Both the position numbers and the translations under genes were made by a program. From NCBI RefSeq assembly GCF_054482595.1, contig NZ_CM137008.1: a DNA stretch of 64,000 bases; one strand, written 5' to 3'. Shown one piece after another: positions 19,495 through 25,625 of the stretch. The notes below the pieces were generated by a model. It had not been told where the DNA came from. It ran no database searches and worked only from the letters and a program-made list of their open reading frames with translations. Within the stretch, counting starts at the first letter, position 1; every line of letters starts with the position of its first letter.

Positions 19495-19904
19495 TGAATG
19501 CGTCATATGCAGTTATTGAAAATGGGATGGTTGTGAATGTCATTGTCTGGGATGGCGAGGCTGAATTCACAGTGCCGGATAATCAGCAGCTCATTGATAT
19601 TTCTGATATCAGTGAGCATCCCGGAATCGGCTGGGGGTATTCAGACGGGGTATTTACTGCGCCGCTCCCTCCGGAACGTTCTCATGATGAACTGGTAGCT
19701 GACGCTGAACAGAAAAAACAGTCGCTGATAGACGCAGCAATGGCCAATATCAGCGTGATTCAGTTAAAGCTGCAGGCCGGGCGCAAACTGACGCAAGAAG
19801 AAACTACCCGACTTAACGTTGTGCTGGATTACATTGACGCGGTGACAGCAACTGATACCAGCACCGCGCCAGATGTCATCTGGCCTGAACTGCCGGAGGC
19901 GTAG
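19494..19904 (+). CDS. Tail fibre assembly protein (Tfa/U-like)
   Basis: Start ATG overlapping fibre stop (taATG); C-terminal ...LDYIDAVTATDTSTAPDVIWPELPEA typical Tfa tail. Confidence 0.75.
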   Translation: MNASYAVIENGMVVNVIVWDGEAEFTVPDNQQLIDISDISEHPGIGWGYSDGVFTAPLPPERSHDELVADAEQKKQSLIDAAMANISVIQLKLQAGRKLTQEETTRLNVVLDYIDAVTATDTSTAPDVIWPELPEA

Positions 19905-20316
19905 GCCATTCAATATCTGGCCCACTGGAAGTATCGACCAGCTCCAGTGCGTCCAGATAATCCAGCCACAAATTATATTGCGCCAGTTCCTCACCTTTCA
20001 GACGACCAATAGCCGCTTTACCAGCCCATTGTTTACTGTTCATATAATCGTTAGCCTGATTAATCAATTGCTGCTTTTCCAGTTCGGCTGCAGCAATCTG
20101 TTCCTCATGTGTTGGTGGTGGAATTTCAGACCATGCAGGAAAACCATTTTCTCCAGCGATACGGATTTTTCCTTTCGGCGGTAATCCGGAAAACTCAATA
20201 TACGCTTGCTCATCAACTTCAACAGCATCATCTGGCCATGAGTCAGCTTGAGTGTAATCCTCTTTCATTTCCAGTGGATAGAAAGAGTTTGTAGTCGCGG
20301 AATATATGTAATTCAT
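19876..20316 (-). CDS. Alternative tail fibre assembly protein (Tfa-prime), inverted orientation
   Basis: 146 aa, convergent with tfa, C-terminus ...WLDYLDALELVDTSSGPDIEWPTPP paralogous to Tfa. Confidence 0.7.
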   Translation of the reverse strand: MNYIYSATTNSFYPLEMKEDYTQADSWPDDAVEVDEQAYIEFSGLPPKGKIRIAGENGFPAWSEIPPPTHEEQIAAAELEKQQLINQANDYMNSKQWAGKAAIGRLKGEELAQYNLWLDYLDALELVDTSSGPDIEWPTPPAVQAR

Positions 20317-20337
20317 TTTTCACTCCATATAGCTAAA

Positions 20338-20730
20338 TTAACAGCCTAACGCTAAAAATGAAGCGCCGAGACCTGGAGTACTGGCTCTGGATATAAATTT
20401 AACCGGGTCGGAACTAAAACCTGCGCAGGCAATATAACCAACAGACCCGCTATCTGGTGTGTAGTCTTGTGAGACCAAAACACGCAGACATCGGTTTGGA
20501 AATGCAATCGGAAAATGGGTTACCACATCCTGTGCAATGCCTGGTGCGCCGATTGAGCCCCACTGAAGAATAAAACCAGATGGTAATTTTTGATATCCAG
20601 TACCTGAAACAGAAAGCGTGAAGCTACCCATATCAGGTATCTGATTCGTCCCTGTCCCCACATTCCTTTTTGCCGCTTCTCCCAAACCAACGTTTATGAA
20701 AATGCAGAAATAACAAGCAAATGGCATCAT
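20338..20730 (-). CDS. Alternative tail fibre variable C-terminal segment (Sv-prime), unexpressed in this orientation
   Basis: Minus-strand ORF upstream of tfa-prime; contains right crossover site and encodes ...FINVGLGE... matching the junction peptide of the expressed fibre. Confidence 0.55.
20678..20700. repeat. Right invertase crossover site (inverted copy)
   Basis: tctcccaaacc AA cgtttatgaa; reverse complement shares ggtttgggaga half-site with left site. Confidence 0.5.
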
Positions 20731-20756: not shown

Positions 20757-20885
20757 ATGCTTATTGGTTATGTACGCGTATCAACAAATGACCAGAATAC
20801 CGATCTACAACGCAATGCGCTGAACTGTGCAGGGTGTGAGCTGATTTTTGAAGACAAGATAAGCGGTACAAAGTCCGAGACCTAG
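20757..20885 (+). pseudogene. pin: Truncated DNA invertase gene (Pin/Gin/Hin family), only about 42 N-terminal codons
   Basis: MLIGYVRVSTNDQNTDLQRNALNCAGCELIFEDKISGTKSET then stop; serine-recombinase N-terminus with catalytic Ser in YVRVSTNDQ; full-length invertases are about 190 aa. Confidence 0.75.
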
Positions 20886-20980: not shown

Positions 20981-22870
20981 TTAATCGTGTTTTGGCCATA
21001 CTTTCAATGCAATTTCCCCCAACTTTTTACCCCGCTCCAGGATTTCATCCTCATCCCATTTATCCTTAACTATAAGTGGAATGTTCAGTCGTAGATTGGT
21101 GTGGACGATGAGAGCATCACGTTTTTTCAGAAATACAGCATTCTGAACAGAACGGTTTACGCTAAGGTTAAGCAAAGTTAGATTTCCCAACGTAGCTATC
21201 GCTTGTTGCCGTTTCCTTACCAGTAGCTGTTCAGGGGTAAGATCGGTTCCAGACAGAACAATTTGGTTCAATACCGTAGCATCTGAATTTGTCACCATAT
21301 GACCATTTTCGAGAGGCCAACAGGAAAACCAACTTTGAGGCATAAGATGATCGATATCGAGATTGGAAAGATTTGGACCATCAGGCTTCTCTGTCTTCAC
21401 TTGGCGACAAAGTTCTCTTTCAAGTTCCGTTAACATTGAGCGCATTTTCGGTGCGTCGAGCCTGCCAGGATAAAGTGGAGCATTGATGCAAGCATTGAGA
21501 AATTCTGAGTCACCAGGCCAACGTGAGGCTTCGCCATTTAAGCTATTGAGGATATTACGTAACTCAACACTGGAAATTTCCGTTTTAGACAAGTGCCGCA
21601 ATACATTCATAAATACATTGTTGTAATTCTTTGGCGTCAGGCCACATACGGCTCTTCGTACTACGTAGGAGACAAGATCATTATACATGGCTGCTTTCTC
21701 ATCATCAGCGATGTTAGCTATCGAAATGAACAAAGCAAGCGGATAAAGTGTCGTCACATCATAGTCTGCGATGCGATATCCAAAGTGTGAGATGGGGGTT
21801 GTGCCAAAACCATCAACCAATTCTTTATATTGTGATGCATATTGTTTGAGGCGCTTTACTTGCAGATCTGCTCGTTGTGAAGACAAGTCCTTACTTACAT
21901 AATCACGATACTCATTGTAAAGGCGAGACAGATCAATTTCACGCTGCCTTTCTGATTGCAATGTCGCATGTACTAGCCACTCCATGCGTGGTTTATTAAT
22001 ACGTCCACGGCGTTGCTTTTCCGACCAGTATTTATCTTCAAAGCTCTTCCACTCATTTTCATATAATTCAATAGCATTAATATTTTCATGCTCAGCGCAC
22101 ATAAAGATATAGTTGCGAATAAGATCCGTGGCATGAAGTTCCGCCCCTCGCCCATTTAATGTTTCAAAAATTATTTGGGCATCATCTTCAGCTTCGAGAA
22201 ATATGCTTACCAGTTTCAGATCTGTTAAGACAGCCTCAATTAGAGCTACAGCATTTTCTTGTGGTGAGTGGTTTTCTATTTTAATCCATTTTATAAAGGC
22301 TTCAGTAAAAAAACATAATGCTTCTAGTGATGGCGGGTGATTAAAATGCTTACGCAACGTACCATGCTGCGTGAAACTATCAGAGAATACGTCCCGGAGA
22401 TCGTCAATATTTTCAACATTAAAACTTTGAATAAAATGAGTTTGATCCCGAAAAGTTGGCCATAGTTTGAAGCGTTCTACTTCTTTATTTCGCATTGTGT
22501 CTTCGTTTGAGTTTTTCAGGCAAGGCGAAATGAGAGCCTCTAAGCTGAAAAGATCCGTAGCACGTAATGCTAATCGGATGGATGCCAGAACATATTGAAG
22601 AGTGGTCAATCGTTGCTGACCATCAATAATATGTATGGAATCTACACCTAATAATCCTTTTTTTGATTGAGGTTCCAGTACAACCGCACCAAGGAAATGG
22701 GGAGTTGGTTTTGTACCCGAGAGCCGGGATTGTGCTTTCTCTAGGATATCCTCCAGTAGAGCTGACCATTGGTCTTGCTGAGTCCATACATAGGCACGTT
22801 GATAGAATGGAACACAGTATTGTCGGCGGTCTTGAAAAAGTTGTTGGACAGTTAGCGTCTCGGATTTCAT
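20981..22870 (-). CDS. GmrSD-like type IV restriction endonuclease candidate (DUF262 N-terminal, DUF1524 C-terminal)
   Basis: ORF 20981..22930; motifs FYQRAYVW and IIDGQQRLTTL (DUF262) and NLDIDHLMPQSW (DUF1524 His-Me); probable start MKSETLTVQQ at 22870 with AGG SD; visibly AT-rich. Confidence 0.8.
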   Translation of the reverse strand: MKSETLTVQQLFQDRRQYCVPFYQRAYVWTQQDQWSALLEDILEKAQSRLSGTKPTPHFLGAVVLEPQSKKGLLGVDSIHIIDGQQRLTTLQYVLASIRLALRATDLFSLEALISPCLKNSNEDTMRNKEVERFKLWPTFRDQTHFIQSFNVENIDDLRDVFSDSFTQHGTLRKHFNHPPSLEALCFFTEAFIKWIKIENHSPQENAVALIEAVLTDLKLVSIFLEAEDDAQIIFETLNGRGAELHATDLIRNYIFMCAEHENINAIELYENEWKSFEDKYWSEKQRRGRINKPRMEWLVHATLQSERQREIDLSRLYNEYRDYVSKDLSSQRADLQVKRLKQYASQYKELVDGFGTTPISHFGYRIADYDVTTLYPLALFISIANIADDEKAAMYNDLVSYVVRRAVCGLTPKNYNNVFMNVLRHLSKTEISSVELRNILNSLNGEASRWPGDSEFLNACINAPLYPGRLDAPKMRSMLTELERELCRQVKTEKPDGPNLSNLDIDHLMPQSWFSCWPLENGHMVTNSDATVLNQIVLSGTDLTPEQLLVRKRQQAIATLGNLTLLNLSVNRSVQNAVFLKKRDALIVHTNLRLNIPLIVKDKWDEDEILERGKKLGEIALKVWPKHD

Positions 22871-23140
22871 GGTATACCTGTAAGCGACATTGTACAAAAG
22901 TGAGGAGTTAATCTGATTTAGAACAATCATTTTATTTTGCTATGATACAACGTATTTGTTACCGGTTAAGCAAAAAACGCGTCTGAACGCTGACGTTTTA
23001 GGGCTTTACTGGTTATTCTTTCTTATCTCTTCATCATCCCATCGGCATCCTGTCGAGGTTGTTGACTTGTTGTTATTTATTTTGTCTAGGCGCTGTTTAA
23101 TTATTATTGATAGAACTGATGGTGAGAGGTGATTGAAACC

Positions 23141-23170
23141 GTAGGCACGTCGTTTGCAAGGACGTGCTAC
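23141..23170. other. Stable hairpin in AT-rich spacer
   Basis: gtaggcacgtc gtttgcaag gacgtgctac, about 10 bp stem with one bulge. Confidence 0.3.
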
Positions 23171-23225
23171 GACTGGCTGGTGAATTTCCGATAGTGCGAG
23201 TATTGAATGATTTCCTACGTGCTAA

Positions 23226-23472
23226 CTAGTGAACAAACAACTCTTCAGTAGACTCTCAGGTATCATTCAGAGTTTCCTGAACGAAAGTTTTAGCTCAATC
23301 TTTATCTGCAGTATGTCTAACTGAAAAACTATCGTTGCTGGTGGCTTTTACGATCATCTCCACATCGTCATAACGCTTGCCAATGTGTTGGGTTAATTCT
23401 TCCTTTAACGCGTCCACAGCGCCGTTTGGCATTTGGTCATTTGTCTTTGGCTATGGAGATCTCAATACGCAT
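23226..23472 (-). pseudogene. dinI-family gene remnant disrupted by a frameshift and two in-frame TGA codons
   Basis: Minus strand reads [11 protein letters not shown] then, one nucleotide out of frame, [66 protein letters not shown]; resembles DinI (MRIEVTIAKTSPLPAGAIDALAGEL...SVRY...ILQETWESADDWFV) as recalled; length about 246 nt. Confidence 0.55.
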
Positions 23473-23677
23473 AACACTTCTTTTGTACTGCGTTTGTAGA
23501 CAGTATTATTCTTATCTGTGTAAATAAACAGTATCAAGACTTCGTTTTAGCTGCATAAGAAAAAAGAGATGGATACATTCGGAAAGCTTTTGATGGTGGT
23601 AGGCTAAGTGAATAGCCTAAAGGTGTTTTACCCCAATTATTCCCCGGTATTTCTCCGCATAAAAAACAATCATAAAA

Positions 23678-23710
23678 AAACCAGCCATAATAGGCTGGTT
23701 TTTAAGGGAT
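23678..23710 (-). terminator. proL terminator (hairpin flanked by A and T runs, bidirectional)
   Basis: aaaaaaa ccagcc ataata ggctgg ttttt just 3' of the tRNA on the minus strand. Confidence 0.5.
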
Positions 23711-23713
23711 TTT

Positions 23714-23790
23714 TGGTCGGCACGAGAGGATTTGAACCTCCGACCCCCGACACCCCATGACGGTGCGCTACCAGGCTGCGCTACGTGCCG
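23714..23790 (-). tRNA. proL: tRNA-Pro (anticodon GGG)
   Basis: Reverse complement cggcacgtagcgcagcctggtagcgcaccgtcatggggtgtcgggggtcggaggttcaaatcctctcgtgccgacca; cloverleaf with U33-GGG-G37 anticodon loop, TTCAAAT T-loop and CCA end. Confidence 0.92.
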
Positions 23791-23864
23791 ACTCGTGGCT
23801 GTTAATACTACCGTTTTCCACACCGATTGCAAGTAAGATATTTCGCTAACTGATTTATAATTAA

Positions 23865-25625
23865 TCAGTTAGCGATAAAACGCTTCTCGTCTGTCAGTAC
23901 TTGCAATAACAAACTTAACTGTGGTTTTTCATCTTTCACTCTTTCACCACGTAAGTTGTAAGTGCGGTATTTACCGTTATTGTTCAGCACCAGCGTCTTT
24001 TTCGGGGTGGTAATTGCCAGCGTATCGTTATCCGCTGCGGTAACCCAGTAATGACGGCGTTGAGGGTTGAACAAATCCTGACCTTGCGAATATTCGCTGG
24101 CAGGTGTGCTGACATGTAGCAGGCGTTGCATCAGCGTCGTCATCAGATCGGTATGATCAGTCAGCGCATTAATACGCTGCGCCGGCGTGCCTGGCCAGTG
24201 AATCACTAATGGCACCTGCAGATGACCGTGGGACCAGTCAAAGGTTTCTTCCTCTTCGCTCAGTGGAATACCCCGACCGGCAGTGATAATCACCACCGTG
24301 TTGTCCAGTTTGCCAGAATCACGCAGTGCATTGAGCACGCGGTTGATCTGGTCATCGACATTGCCTGCCGCCCGGCTATATTTCCGTGCAAATGCCTGCT
24401 GATTGCTGTCGTCAATGTTAGTGCCATTGAAAGAGACCCACGAGAACCAGCGGTTATCTTCTTGTGCGTAGCGGCCCAGCCAGTTGATCCACTGCGTGGC
24501 GGTCTGCTCGTCGGATTGGGTGCGTACGCTCGGCATCGAGAAATCTGACAACAATGCCTGGCGATACAGCGGGCTGGTAAAGCCATCTGATGAGAATAAC
24601 CCCAGCTGATAGCCTTGCTGATTAAGCGCAGTAATTAATGCCGCAGGCGTACGGGTCGACAGAATGCCGTCCATATAGCTCGGCGAGATGCCATAGAACA
24701 GGCCAAAGATGCCGTTGTCTGTAGTGTTGCCGGAGCTCATATGGCGCGTAAACGAAATATTTTGCTCAGCAAAACCTGCCAGCGCAGGCATCTGCTTCTC
24801 GAAGCGTGAGTAGTTCAGGCCATCGACAGTAATCAACAGCACATTCTGCCCAGTGCCCATATCGCGATAGCGCAGTTCGCTTAACGGATACTGAACGGAA
24901 ACGGCGTCTGGATTACCTTGCTCAATAAGACGGCGTTGATACTCCTGCGCATCAAGCAGGCCATGCTTCTCAAGAAAACGTCGCGCCGTCATCGGGTACG
25001 AAAGCGGCAGGTTAGCGCGCTGCATGGTGATCGGGCGATAGAAGTTGGCATCGGCCCAGATATACACCACATGCGAGGCGATAAAGGCGATAAATAAGAA
25101 TGCGGCCAGCGGGCGCGCGAAGCGCCGACGACGCGTCAGGCTGCGCAGCTTTTGCCAGCTCCACGTCGCAAACACCAGTTCAAGCAATAAAATAACCGGC
25201 ACGCTGATGAACATCAGCTGCCAGTCGCGCGCCATCTCATTTTCGTCTGGGTTGATAACCAGTTGCCAGACGATGGGATTAAGATGGAGATGGAAACGAG
25301 TAAAGACTTCGCTATCGATCAGTAATAGCGTCATTCCCGCCGTTGCCAGAATGACGGACAAAAACCTCATCAGCCTCTGGGAGCCGACGATAAAGGTCAG
25401 CGGGAAGAGGATCAGCAAGTAGGCGGCGAACACCAGGAAGCTGAAATGGCCGATAATGCTTACGTAGGAATAAATGCGACCAGCAAGCGTGGTCGGCCAG
25501 TCGGCGATAAACAGGTAACGGCTGCCAATGACGAGCGAAAGCAGAATATTGAACAGTGCAAACCAGTGCCCCCAACTGACCATCTGGGAGACTTTTTCAC
25601 GGTAGCGCTGACGATGAGTTACCAT
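23865..25625 (-). CDS. yejM: Inner-membrane cardiolipin/LPS homeostasis protein YejM (PbgA/LapC)
   Basis: 586 aa, N-terminal TM region then sulfatase-like domain; K-12 synteny next to proL. Confidence 0.9.
   Translation of the reverse strand: MVTHRQRYREKVSQMVSWGHWFALFNILLSLVIGSRYLFIADWPTTLAGRIYSYVSIIGHFSFLVFAAYLLILFPLTFIVGSQRLMRFLSVILATAGMTLLLIDSEVFTRFHLHLNPIVWQLVINPDENEMARDWQLMFISVPVILLLELVFATWSWQKLRSLTRRRRFARPLAAFLFIAFIASHVVYIWADANFYRPITMQRANLPLSYPMTARRFLEKHGLLDAQEYQRRLIEQGNPDAVSVQYPLSELRYRDMGTGQNVLLITVDGLNYSRFEKQMPALAGFAEQNISFTRHMSSGNTTDNGIFGLFYGISPSYMDGILSTRTPAALITALNQQGYQLGLFSSDGFTSPLYRQALLSDFSMPSVRTQSDEQTATQWINWLGRYAQEDNRWFSWVSFNGTNIDDSNQQAFARKYSRAAGNVDDQINRVLNALRDSGKLDNTVVIITAGRGIPLSEEEETFDWSHGHLQVPLVIHWPGTPAQRINALTDHTDLMTTLMQRLLHVSTPASEYSQGQDLFNPQRRHYWVTAADNDTLAITTPKKTLVLNNNGKYRTYNLRGERVKDEKPQLSLLLQVLTDEKRFIAN

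What the first reader, a model, noticed from the sequence alone, without database searches (positions are those of the whole stretch)
23226..23472. Decayed dinI-family gene (one frameshift, two in-frame TGA) between the defence gene and proL
Reading the minus strand gives [11 protein letters not shown], then, one nucleotide out of frame, [22 protein letters not shown]...SVRH... and, after two TGA codons, ...QETLNDT...EELFVH. This tracks E. coli DinI as recalled along its length. The total span (about 246 nt) equals an intact 81-codon dinI-like gene. DinI-like genes are common near tail-fibre ends of lambdoid prophages. Three disabling lesions in so short a gene indicate the right end of this prophage is eroding while the structural module stays intact. 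The ORF track missed it because no frame exceeds 60 codons.
Basis: partly seen in the sequence, partly recalled or inferred. Interest (0 to 1): 0.4.

Follow-up and report, generated by a model that had tools for sequence, protein, structure and literature searches.

The report
Dead prophage dinI-like gene beside proL
This is an ordinary, already-annotated dead copy of a small phage-borne SOS-response gene (dinI-like) at the edge of an E. coli prophage; the damage is old and shared by about 150 other genomes.

Summary
Window 23226-23472 (minus strand) is a 247-nt remnant of an 82-codon DinI-family gene: Pfam DinI E 2.5e-9, tblastn to an intact homologue E 1e-31, and a full-length alignment to E. 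coli DinI (1GHH).

RefSeq/PGAP already annotates identical DNA as "DinI-like family protein; frameshifted; internal stop".

- There are four disabling lesions, not three. Two are separate 1-nt deletions in A4 runs (23440-23442 and 23432-23434). Two are nonsense substitutions, TCA>TGA at Ser60 and TGG>TGA at Trp73. W79L is an additional damaging change.
- The host prophage is e14/SfV-like (HK97-type head, Mu-like contractile tail, lambdoid early genes).
- The decay is not local erosion. One deletion and both stops are shared by roughly 155 complete E. coli genomes, at proL and at ssrA. Only the first A-run deletion is nearly private, seen in the window and strain 50EVA.
- Allele classes differ by a recombination tract that starts near codon 28.

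The sigma-70-like promoter and two tandem LexA boxes, the only such sites in the 64 kb, survive. SOS-inducible transcription of a non-coding remnant is therefore likely.

The finding is ordinary and already known, so interest is low.

The parts
23226..23472 (-). DinI-family pseudogene (247 nt; the intact homologue is 249 nt, 82 codons plus stop)
   Evidence: PGAP annotates identical DNA as 'DinI-like family protein; frameshifted; internal stop'.
23440..23442 (-). First A-run, A4>A3: a 1-nt deletion after codon 10. Seen only in the window and strain 50EVA among the 60 best genomes.
   Evidence: Alignments. Match lengths are 748 nt for 50EVA against 749 or 752 nt for the others.
23437..23439 (-). 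TGA created by the first deletion. It ends translation from the original start after 11 codons ([11 protein letters not shown]).
23432..23434 (-). Second A-run, A4>A3: a 1-nt deletion shared by every allele of this lineage examined, at proL and at ssrA
   Evidence: L002, L003, L007, L008, L009 all carry it; intact L004 has AAAA
23295..23432 (-). Residual 45-codon ORF, corresponding to residues 15-59 of the intact protein, with no obvious Shine-Dalgarno sequence
   Evidence: PF06183, 31.9 bits; the sequence
23295..23297 (-). Nonsense codon: TCA (Ser60) > TGA
23256..23258 (-). Nonsense codon: TGG (Trp73) > TGA. It aligns to the Trp of ETWES in E. coli DinI.
23238..23240 (-). TGG>TTG (W79L), which removes the second conserved C-terminal Trp
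23508..23537 (-). Sigma-70-like promoter: TTGATA, 18-nt spacer, AAGAAT. A promoter-like site sits at the same position upstream of the intact homologue.
   Evidence: a promoter is annotated at the equivalent place in phage mEp460
23514..23533 (-). Distal LexA-box-like site TACTGTTTATTTACACAGAT (15/20 matches to consensus), overlapping the promoter spacer
   Evidence: conserved in the intact homologue
23486..23505 (-). Proximal LexA-box-like site TACTGTCTACAAACGCAGTA (15/20 matches), between the -10 element and the start codon
   Evidence: These are the only two sites in the 64 kb with CTG-N10-CAG and at least 14/20 matches; the simulated mean is 0.07.
23139..23172 (-). Conserved hairpin about 55 nt downstream of the stop codon, without a U-tract. 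It is also present beside intact dinI-like genes.
   Evidence: one compensatory pair relative to L004
23712..23762 (.). Prophage attR core: a 51-bp direct repeat equal to the 3' part of proL. The second copy lies outside the window, at L005:6959-7009 in strain 50EVA.
20981..22930 (-). Co-oriented downstream cargo gene, a GmrSD-family type IV restriction enzyme (649 aa). This is context, not part of the pseudogene.

Best explanation
The segment is a non-functional remnant of a phage-borne, LexA-regulated dinI-like gene. It lies 240 nt inside the attR end of an e14/SfV-like prophage integrated in proL.

Ancestral function (established knowledge). The 82-aa protein would be made during the SOS response and would bind RecA filaments through its acidic C-terminal helix, modulating RecA co-protease activity. 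This rests on Yasuda 1998 and Voloshin 2001, as cited in PMC10575684 and PMC3121763.

Why it cannot work here (shown). The reading frame is broken by two 1-nt deletions in A4 runs. Downstream it carries two nonsense codons (Ser60, Trp73) and a W79L change. Translation from the original ATG stops after 11 codons. The only remaining ORF, 45 codons, lacks the first beta-strand and the whole C-terminal RecA-binding helix.

What may remain (inferred). The promoter and two tandem LexA boxes are intact in sequence, so the locus is probably still LexA-bound and transcribed on DNA damage, yielding a non-coding transcript.

History (shown by comparison). The second deletion and both stops are ancestral to a phage lineage present in about 155 complete E. 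coli genomes at two integration sites. The first A-run deletion is a recent, nearly private addition. Allele classes differ by a recombination tract beginning near codon 28, not by stepwise decay in place.
For: Family identity: Pfam PF06183, tblastn E 1.35e-31 in two frames, 1GHH alignment, and 82-83% DNA identity to intact genes in genomes and phages.

Lesions: alignments A1; codon table; coordinates.

Independent annotation: PGAP labels it 'frameshifted; internal stop' in 50EVA, ExPEC XM, APEC O78 and T309.

Loss of constraint: dN/dS is 0.10 between the intact and Ec1115-type alleles and 0.33 towards the window-type allele, which carries 15 non-synonymous changes including both stops and W79L.

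No intact version of this allele was found among 5.8 billion protein clusters. The closest entries stop at the first TGA (P0032, P0041, P0107) or are code-4 mis-calls (P0004).

LexA boxes and promoter.

Shared ancestry across sites:
- 248 genomes carry at least 80% of the region.
- 48 window-type alleles at proL among the 60 best hits.
- 107 genomes show the ssrA-context junction.
- a relic proL core sits next to the pseudogene inside an element bounded by ssrA repeats.

Mosaic structure: 0/162 differences upstream, 2/80 in codons 1-27 and 26/168 in codons 28-83 between the allele classes.
Against: No expression data were available, so silence of the 45-codon ORF and LexA binding are both inferred.

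The dN/dS of 0.33 is below 1. Part of the divergence of the 3' half therefore accrued while that allele was still under selection, or it was imported by recombination.

A protein-database variant with an intact N-terminal frame but the first TGA (P0032), and one with a 7-nt duplication that restores the frame (P0041), show that the order of lesions is not a simple linear series.

The counts of allele types per site are estimates from ranked BLAST tables. They are not a per-genome genotyping.
Confidence: 0.94

Rival explanations
1. The lesions are sequencing or assembly artefacts and the gene is really intact.
For: Two of the four lesions are 1-nt changes in homopolymer runs, a typical long-read error class. 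The first A-run deletion was seen in only one other genome, 50EVA.
Against: The two TGA substitutions and the second deletion are identical in every related assembly inspected (ExPEC XM, APEC O78, T309, 50EVA). About 155 complete genomes are at least 98-99% identical over the region. The A runs are only 3-4 nt long. The private deletion occurs in two different genomes, the window and 50EVA, which differ elsewhere by an IS3 insertion and a tail-fibre inversion.
Confidence: 0.02
2. The coding part is dead, but the LexA-controlled promoter has been kept because it drives SOS-inducible read-through transcription into the co-oriented cargo gene downstream, here the GmrSD type IV restriction enzyme.
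For: The promoter and both LexA boxes are intact. The simple scan finds no minus-strand terminator-like site between the dinI-like gene and the cargo gene in the window, L003 or L004. In all four chromosomal prophage loci inspected that carry a gene in this slot, that gene is co-oriented with and downstream of the dinI-like gene or, at the fourth, of the conserved stub that follows it (GmrSD, DUF4236/DUF2971, ipaHd, DUF4145). [quoted passage not shown]
Against: A promoter-like site lies directly upstream of the GmrSD gene (22969-22942), so it need not depend on read-through. A conserved hairpin (23139-23172) lies in between and may terminate or process the transcript. The identical upstream sequence is equally explained by linkage to the att module and by recent common ancestry. 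There are no expression data.
Confidence: 0.08
3. The 45-codon ORF (23295-23432) encodes a truncated but active DinI fragment.
For: The ORF alone passes the Pfam DinI gathering threshold (31.9 against 24.2 bits) and starts with ATG.
Against: There is no Shine-Dalgarno-like sequence in the 15 nt upstream. The ORF lacks the N-terminal strand (MRIE...) and the whole C-terminal helix, including both conserved Trp residues, which is the RecA-interacting part of DinI (Voloshin 2001 as cited in PMC3121763). The substitutions within it are mostly non-conservative.
Confidence: 0.03
4. The TGA codons are recoded (read as Trp or Sec, or suppressed), so a full-length protein is still made.
For: All three in-frame stops are TGA. 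One replaces a Trp codon. A metagenomic gene caller produced an 84-aa product reading them as W (P0004).
Against: E. coli uses code 11, and P0004 is a code-4 mis-call on contigs of about 580 nt. The Ser60 TGA derives from TCA, not TGG. No SECIS-like context was seen. Frame restoration across two deletions would also be needed.
Confidence: 0.01

Closest known systems
Prophage/phage DinI-like family proteins of lambdoid and Stx phages (e.g. WP_001217553.1; mEp460 gp021; 'RecA filament binding protein DinI' of phage 2H10)
   Same: DNA identity is 82-83% and protein identity about 77% over residues 14-82. The 82-codon architecture, the position between the tail-fibre/cargo region and attP/int, and the promoter with two CTGT-N8-ACAG boxes are all shared.
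   Different: The window copy has two frameshifting deletions, two nonsense codons, W79L and a 15-nt deletion just after the stop codon. It is not a functional member.
E. coli chromosomal DinI (PDB 1GHH / 7YWA)
   Same: The alignment is full-length and collinear (residues 1-81 against 1-79). The MRIE N-terminus, the GA(I/V)DAL motif and the C-terminal QETW(E)S..(D/E)WFV helix are shared, and both are LexA-regulated (for the boxes).
   Different: Similarity is only moderate (E 1.1e-5). This copy is prophage-borne, has two LexA boxes and is inactivated.
Gifsy-1/2/3 LexA-controlled dinI-antirepressor-irsA operon (Lemire et al. 2011, PMC3121763)
   Same: A dinI homologue sits directly downstream of a LexA box and promoter within a prophage accessory region, as the first gene of an SOS-controlled unit.
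   Different: No antirepressor-sized ORF follows here; the only candidate is a 20-codon TTG ORF at 23097-23159. The prophage repressor is a LexA/S24-family protein, YmfK in the 50EVA annotation, which is expected to be RecA-cleavable, so an antirepressor is not required.
Coliphage 186 Tum (antirepressor fused to a DinI-like C-terminal half)
   Same: A DinI-like module under LexA control in a temperate phage (PMC3121763).
   Different: Tum is 146 aa with an N-terminal antirepressor half. The ancestral gene here is a stand-alone 82-aa DinI-like protein.

Membership tests
DinI-like family (Pfam PF06183) | Sequence match to the family profile above the curated threshold | tested here: met
The intact homologue scores 70.9 bits.
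DinI-like family (Pfam PF06183) | Uninterrupted ORF of about 80 codons encoding the whole alpha/beta domain | tested here: not met
   Two 1-nt deletions and two nonsense codons break the frame; the longest ORF is 45 codons. It is therefore a pseudogene derived from the family, not a functional member.
DinI-like family (Pfam PF06183) | C-terminal acidic helix with conserved Trp residues (the RecA-interacting surface of DinI) | tested here: not met
   Trp73 is now TGA and Trp79 is Leu. The helix lies downstream of both stops.
DinI-like family (Pfam PF06183) | Binding to RecA filaments and modulation of co-protease activity | not testable with these tools
   This needs biochemistry. It is predicted to be absent because no full-length product can be made.
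SOS (LexA) regulon gene | LexA box (CTG-N10-CAG, close to TACTGTATATATATACAGTA) overlapping the promoter | tested here: met
   Two boxes, each 15/20 matches, lie at 23514-23533 and 23486-23505, flanking the -10 element. They are the only such sites in the 64 kb (simulated mean 0.07) and are conserved upstream of the intact homologue.
SOS (LexA) regulon gene | LexA binding and DNA-damage-inducible transcription | not testable with these tools
   This needs ChIP, EMSA or RNA-seq after mitomycin C.
Gifsy-type LexA-controlled dinI-antirepressor operon | Small antirepressor gene immediately downstream of the dinI homologue | tested here: not met
   There is no minus-strand ORF above 20 codons between 22931 and 23225. 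The next gene is GmrSD.

The most novel reading that the evidence does not exclude
The dead dinI-like gene may persist as an SOS-controlled transcriptional 'launch pad'. Under this reading its intact LexA-regulated promoter, with no recognisable terminator before the co-oriented cargo slot, makes whatever cargo gene lands downstream DNA-damage-inducible. Here that cargo is a GmrSD type IV restriction enzyme; elsewhere it is ipaH, DUF4236 or DUF4145. Anti-phage defence or effector expression would then be coupled to the SOS response.
Probability: 0.08. Interest if true: 0.35.

Novelty: already known. Interest (0 to 1): 0.07.

Why it matters
It matters little. The locus is a routine pseudogene that NCBI's pipeline already labels correctly.

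Its modest value is as a worked example of three points:
- Pseudogenes at prophage ends can be ancestral baggage of a still-mobile or recombining phage lineage, found here at two att sites in about 155 genomes. They are not necessarily evidence that a given prophage is decaying in place.
- Homologous recombination between dinI-like paralogues produces mosaic pseudogene alleles.
- Short-contig gene callers can 'rescue' such pseudogenes by wrongly choosing genetic code 4.

The surviving LexA-controlled promoter next to a defence-gene cargo slot is the only feature that might merit an experiment.

Tried and rejected
- On first reading I suspected a 7-nt duplication (CCAAATG CCAAACG) as the cause of the frameshift. 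Alignment to intact homologues rejected this: the AAAATGACYAAAATGCC repeat is native and the lesions are two 1-nt deletions. A real 7-nt duplication does occur in another variant (P0041).
- I considered that three TGA codons might indicate recoding or a systematic TGG>TGA process. This was rejected because one TGA is a by-product of the frameshift, one derives from TCA, and only one derives from TGG.
- I tested for a known sRNA or cis-regulatory RNA in 22850-23900. Rfam returned only the tRNA; every other hit was far below gathering scores.
- I looked for an antirepressor gene downstream, as in Gifsy prophages, and found no suitable ORF.
- The downstream hairpin is not more stable than shuffled sequence when folded in context (z = -0.59), and the simple terminator scan does not call it.
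- I tried to read the allele series as a linear order of decay. The mosaic pattern and the variants P0032 and P0014 show that recombination confounds it.
- The 'capsid protein' annotation under hundreds of short matches to 23150-23218 turned out to be an 81-nt PGAP fragment call.

Full report
**1. Observation**

On the minus strand, ATG lies at 23472-23470 and TAG at 23228-23226, a span of 247 nt. One frame reads [11 protein letters not shown] followed by TGA. Another reads [75 protein letters not shown]. The longest ORF is 45 codons (23295-23432).

**2. Is it DinI-like, beyond chance?**

- tblastn of an intact 82-aa homologue (WP_001217553.1, read from L004) against the whole window returns only this locus. 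Residues 14-82 match at 76.8% identity (E 1.35e-31) in one frame and residues 1-11 match in another.
- E. coli DinI (1GHH) aligns collinearly over its whole length (E 1.1e-5). The second TGA falls on the Trp of ETWES.
- RefSeq/PGAP annotates identical DNA in strain 50EVA, and near-identical DNA in ExPEC XM, APEC O78 and T309, as "DinI-like family protein; frameshifted; internal stop".

The call is therefore already in public annotation.

**3. Lesions**

I aligned the window to an intact gene (L004) and to related pseudogene alleles. This shows four disabling lesions plus one damaging missense change:

- A4>A3 at 23440-23442. This puts TGA in frame at 23437-23439, so translation from the native ATG ends after 11 codons.
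- A4>A3 at 23432-23434.
- TCA>TGA at codon 60 (23295-23297).
- TGG>TGA at codon 73 (23256-23258).
- TGG>TTG at codon 79 (W79L).
- In addition, TAA>TAG at the stop codon and a 15-nt deletion just after it.

The intact length is 82 codons (249 nt with the stop), not 81.

**4. Regulatory region**

A promoter-like site (TTGATA, 18-nt spacer, AAGAAT; 23537-23508) lies upstream, and a promoter-like site sits at the same position before the intact homologue. It is flanked by two LexA-box-like sites, TACTGTTTATTTACACAGAT (23533-23514) and TACTGTCTACAAACGCAGTA (23505-23486). These are the only two sites in the 64 kb with CTG-N10-CAG and at least 14/20 matches to the consensus; the mean in 100 Markov simulations is 0.07. 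Both are conserved upstream of the intact gene. SOS-regulated transcription is thus probably retained. This is an inference.

**5. Context**

proL (tRNA-Pro GGG) lies at 23714-23790 and yejM follows it.

In strain 50EVA the prophage is bounded by a 51-bp direct repeat equal to the 3' part of proL. This repeat corresponds to window 23712-23762; the left copy lies outside the window.

The prophage carries e14-type gene names (ymfK/T/L/R/Q), a HK97-type head, a Mu-like contractile tail and lambdoid lysis and early genes. It is therefore e14/SfV-like and not a classical lambdoid siphovirus.

Downstream of the pseudogene and co-oriented with it is a full-length GmrSD type IV restriction gene (20981-22930; PADLOC mREase_IV 1418 bits; Pfam GmrSD_N and GmrSD_C).

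In isolated phages the DinI-like gene occupies the same slot. In mEp460 the order is side tail fibre, DinI-like, promoter, integrase. In total, 177 phage records carry homologues.

**6. Population and history**

Of 5426 complete E. coli genomes, 248 carry at least 80% of window 23150-23720.

Among the best 60 hits that span into yejM, 48 carry the window-type allele at proL. Match lengths indicate that only 50EVA shares the first A-run deletion. Further proL genomes carry an "Ec1115-type" allele that has only the second deletion and no stops.

A further 107 genomes carry the pseudogene in a different context. In ExPEC XM the same prophage type sits in an element bounded by repeats of the ssrA 3' end. 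The pseudogene there carries the second deletion and both TGAs and is followed by a relic, single-copy proL att core.

Three of the four lesions therefore predate the present lysogeny and have moved with the phage, by re-integration after an int/att module swap or by inter-prophage recombination. They do not show that this prophage's right end is eroding in place.

The two allele classes are mosaic. They show 0/162 differences upstream, 2/80 in codons 1-27 and 26/168 in codons 28-83, while the Ec1115-type 3' half differs from the intact gene at only 6/168 sites. This indicates a recombination breakpoint near codon 27/28.

dN/dS rises from 0.10 (intact against Ec1115-type) to 0.33 towards the window-type allele. 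That is consistent with relaxed constraint, but recombination confounds the estimate.

The protein database holds no intact version of the window-type allele. P0032 and P0041 end at the first TGA, P0107 is the 45-aa ORF, and P0004 reads TGA as Trp, a code-4 mis-call. P0041 carries a 7-nt duplication that restores the frame.

**7. Mechanism**

The ancestral protein would be an SOS-induced RecA-filament binder (DinI: Yasuda 1998; Voloshin 2001; Lusetti 2004, as cited in PMC10575684 and PMC3121763). In a prophage whose repressor is a LexA/S24-family protein (YmfK), such a protein could tune RecA-stimulated repressor cleavage. This is inference.

Non-polar deletion of the Gifsy dinI homologues had no measurable effect on induction (PMC3121763). 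That fits a dispensable gene that can decay without disabling the phage. In the window the product cannot be made.

**8. Rivals**

- Assembly error is excluded for the shared lesions and is unlikely for the private one, which occurs in two distinct genomes.
- A functional 45-aa fragment is unlikely. It has no Shine-Dalgarno sequence and lacks the RecA-binding helix.
- TGA recoding is very unlikely.
- SOS-driven read-through into the defence gene cannot be excluded. No terminator-like site is found in three loci. Against it, GmrSD has its own promoter-like site and a conserved hairpin intervenes.
- No antirepressor ORF of the Gifsy type is present.

**9. Verdict**

The feature is already known and ordinary.

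Noticed in passing
window 18852-20695 (invertible segment 18870-20677); invertase stump 20757-20879 (+): The 1808-nt tail-fibre segment, flanked by 18-nt inverted repeats (AAACCTTGGTTTGGGAGA), is the exact reverse complement of the same segment in the otherwise near-identical prophage of strain 50EVA. The adjacent invertase gene is only a 123-nt stump in both, and also in ExPEC XM. Inversion after the truncation implies a trans-acting Pin/Gin-family invertase elsewhere in the genome.
   Followed up: partly
window 23139-23172 (-), within the conserved stretch 23150-23218: A conserved hairpin lies about 55 nt downstream of the dinI-like stop codon. It is also present next to intact dinI-like genes and shows one compensatory pair (U-A to C-G) relative to L004. 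About 650 further E. coli genomes match only this stretch of roughly 65 nt, and PGAP labels such stubs as 'capsid protein' fragments, which looks like a mis-annotation.
   Followed up: partly
protein P0004 (ENA metagenome contigs of about 580 nt), corresponding to window 23226-23480: A gene caller produced an 84-aa 'protein' from this pseudogene by reading both TGA codons as Trp, presumably using genetic code 4 on short contigs. The cluster has 24 member sequences. This is a database artefact.
   Followed up: yes
L002:4572-4625 / L006:5308-5355 (ExPEC XM); window 23712-23762: Relatives of this prophage integrated at ssrA (107 genomes) keep a single relic copy of the proL att core, with a 1-nt deletion, next to the pseudogene. 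This indicates a past int/att module exchange between proL- and ssrA-targeting phages.
   Followed up: partly
window 23676-23703 (-) and 23672-23762: The intrinsic terminator directly after proL lies inside the phage-derived attR arm. Genomes without the prophage match this stretch of about 100 nt at only 86-88% identity. The prophage therefore supplies both the 3' end of the tRNA and its terminator.
   Followed up: partly
window 20981-22930 (-) compared with L001:496-3507: The GmrSD type IV restriction gene is intact in the window (649 aa). In strain 50EVA an IS3-family element is inserted at its 5' end, leaving a 602-aa annotation. In APEC O78 an IS2 lies next to the pseudogene. This cargo slot is a hotspot for insertions.
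   Followed up: no
window 13010-13456 (-): A small reverse-oriented 'OB-fold protein' gene sits between the tape-measure gene and the DNA-circularisation gene of the tail module. It looks like a cargo-gene insertion inside the structural operon. The annotation was transferred from 50EVA; the window copy is not identical.
   Followed up: no
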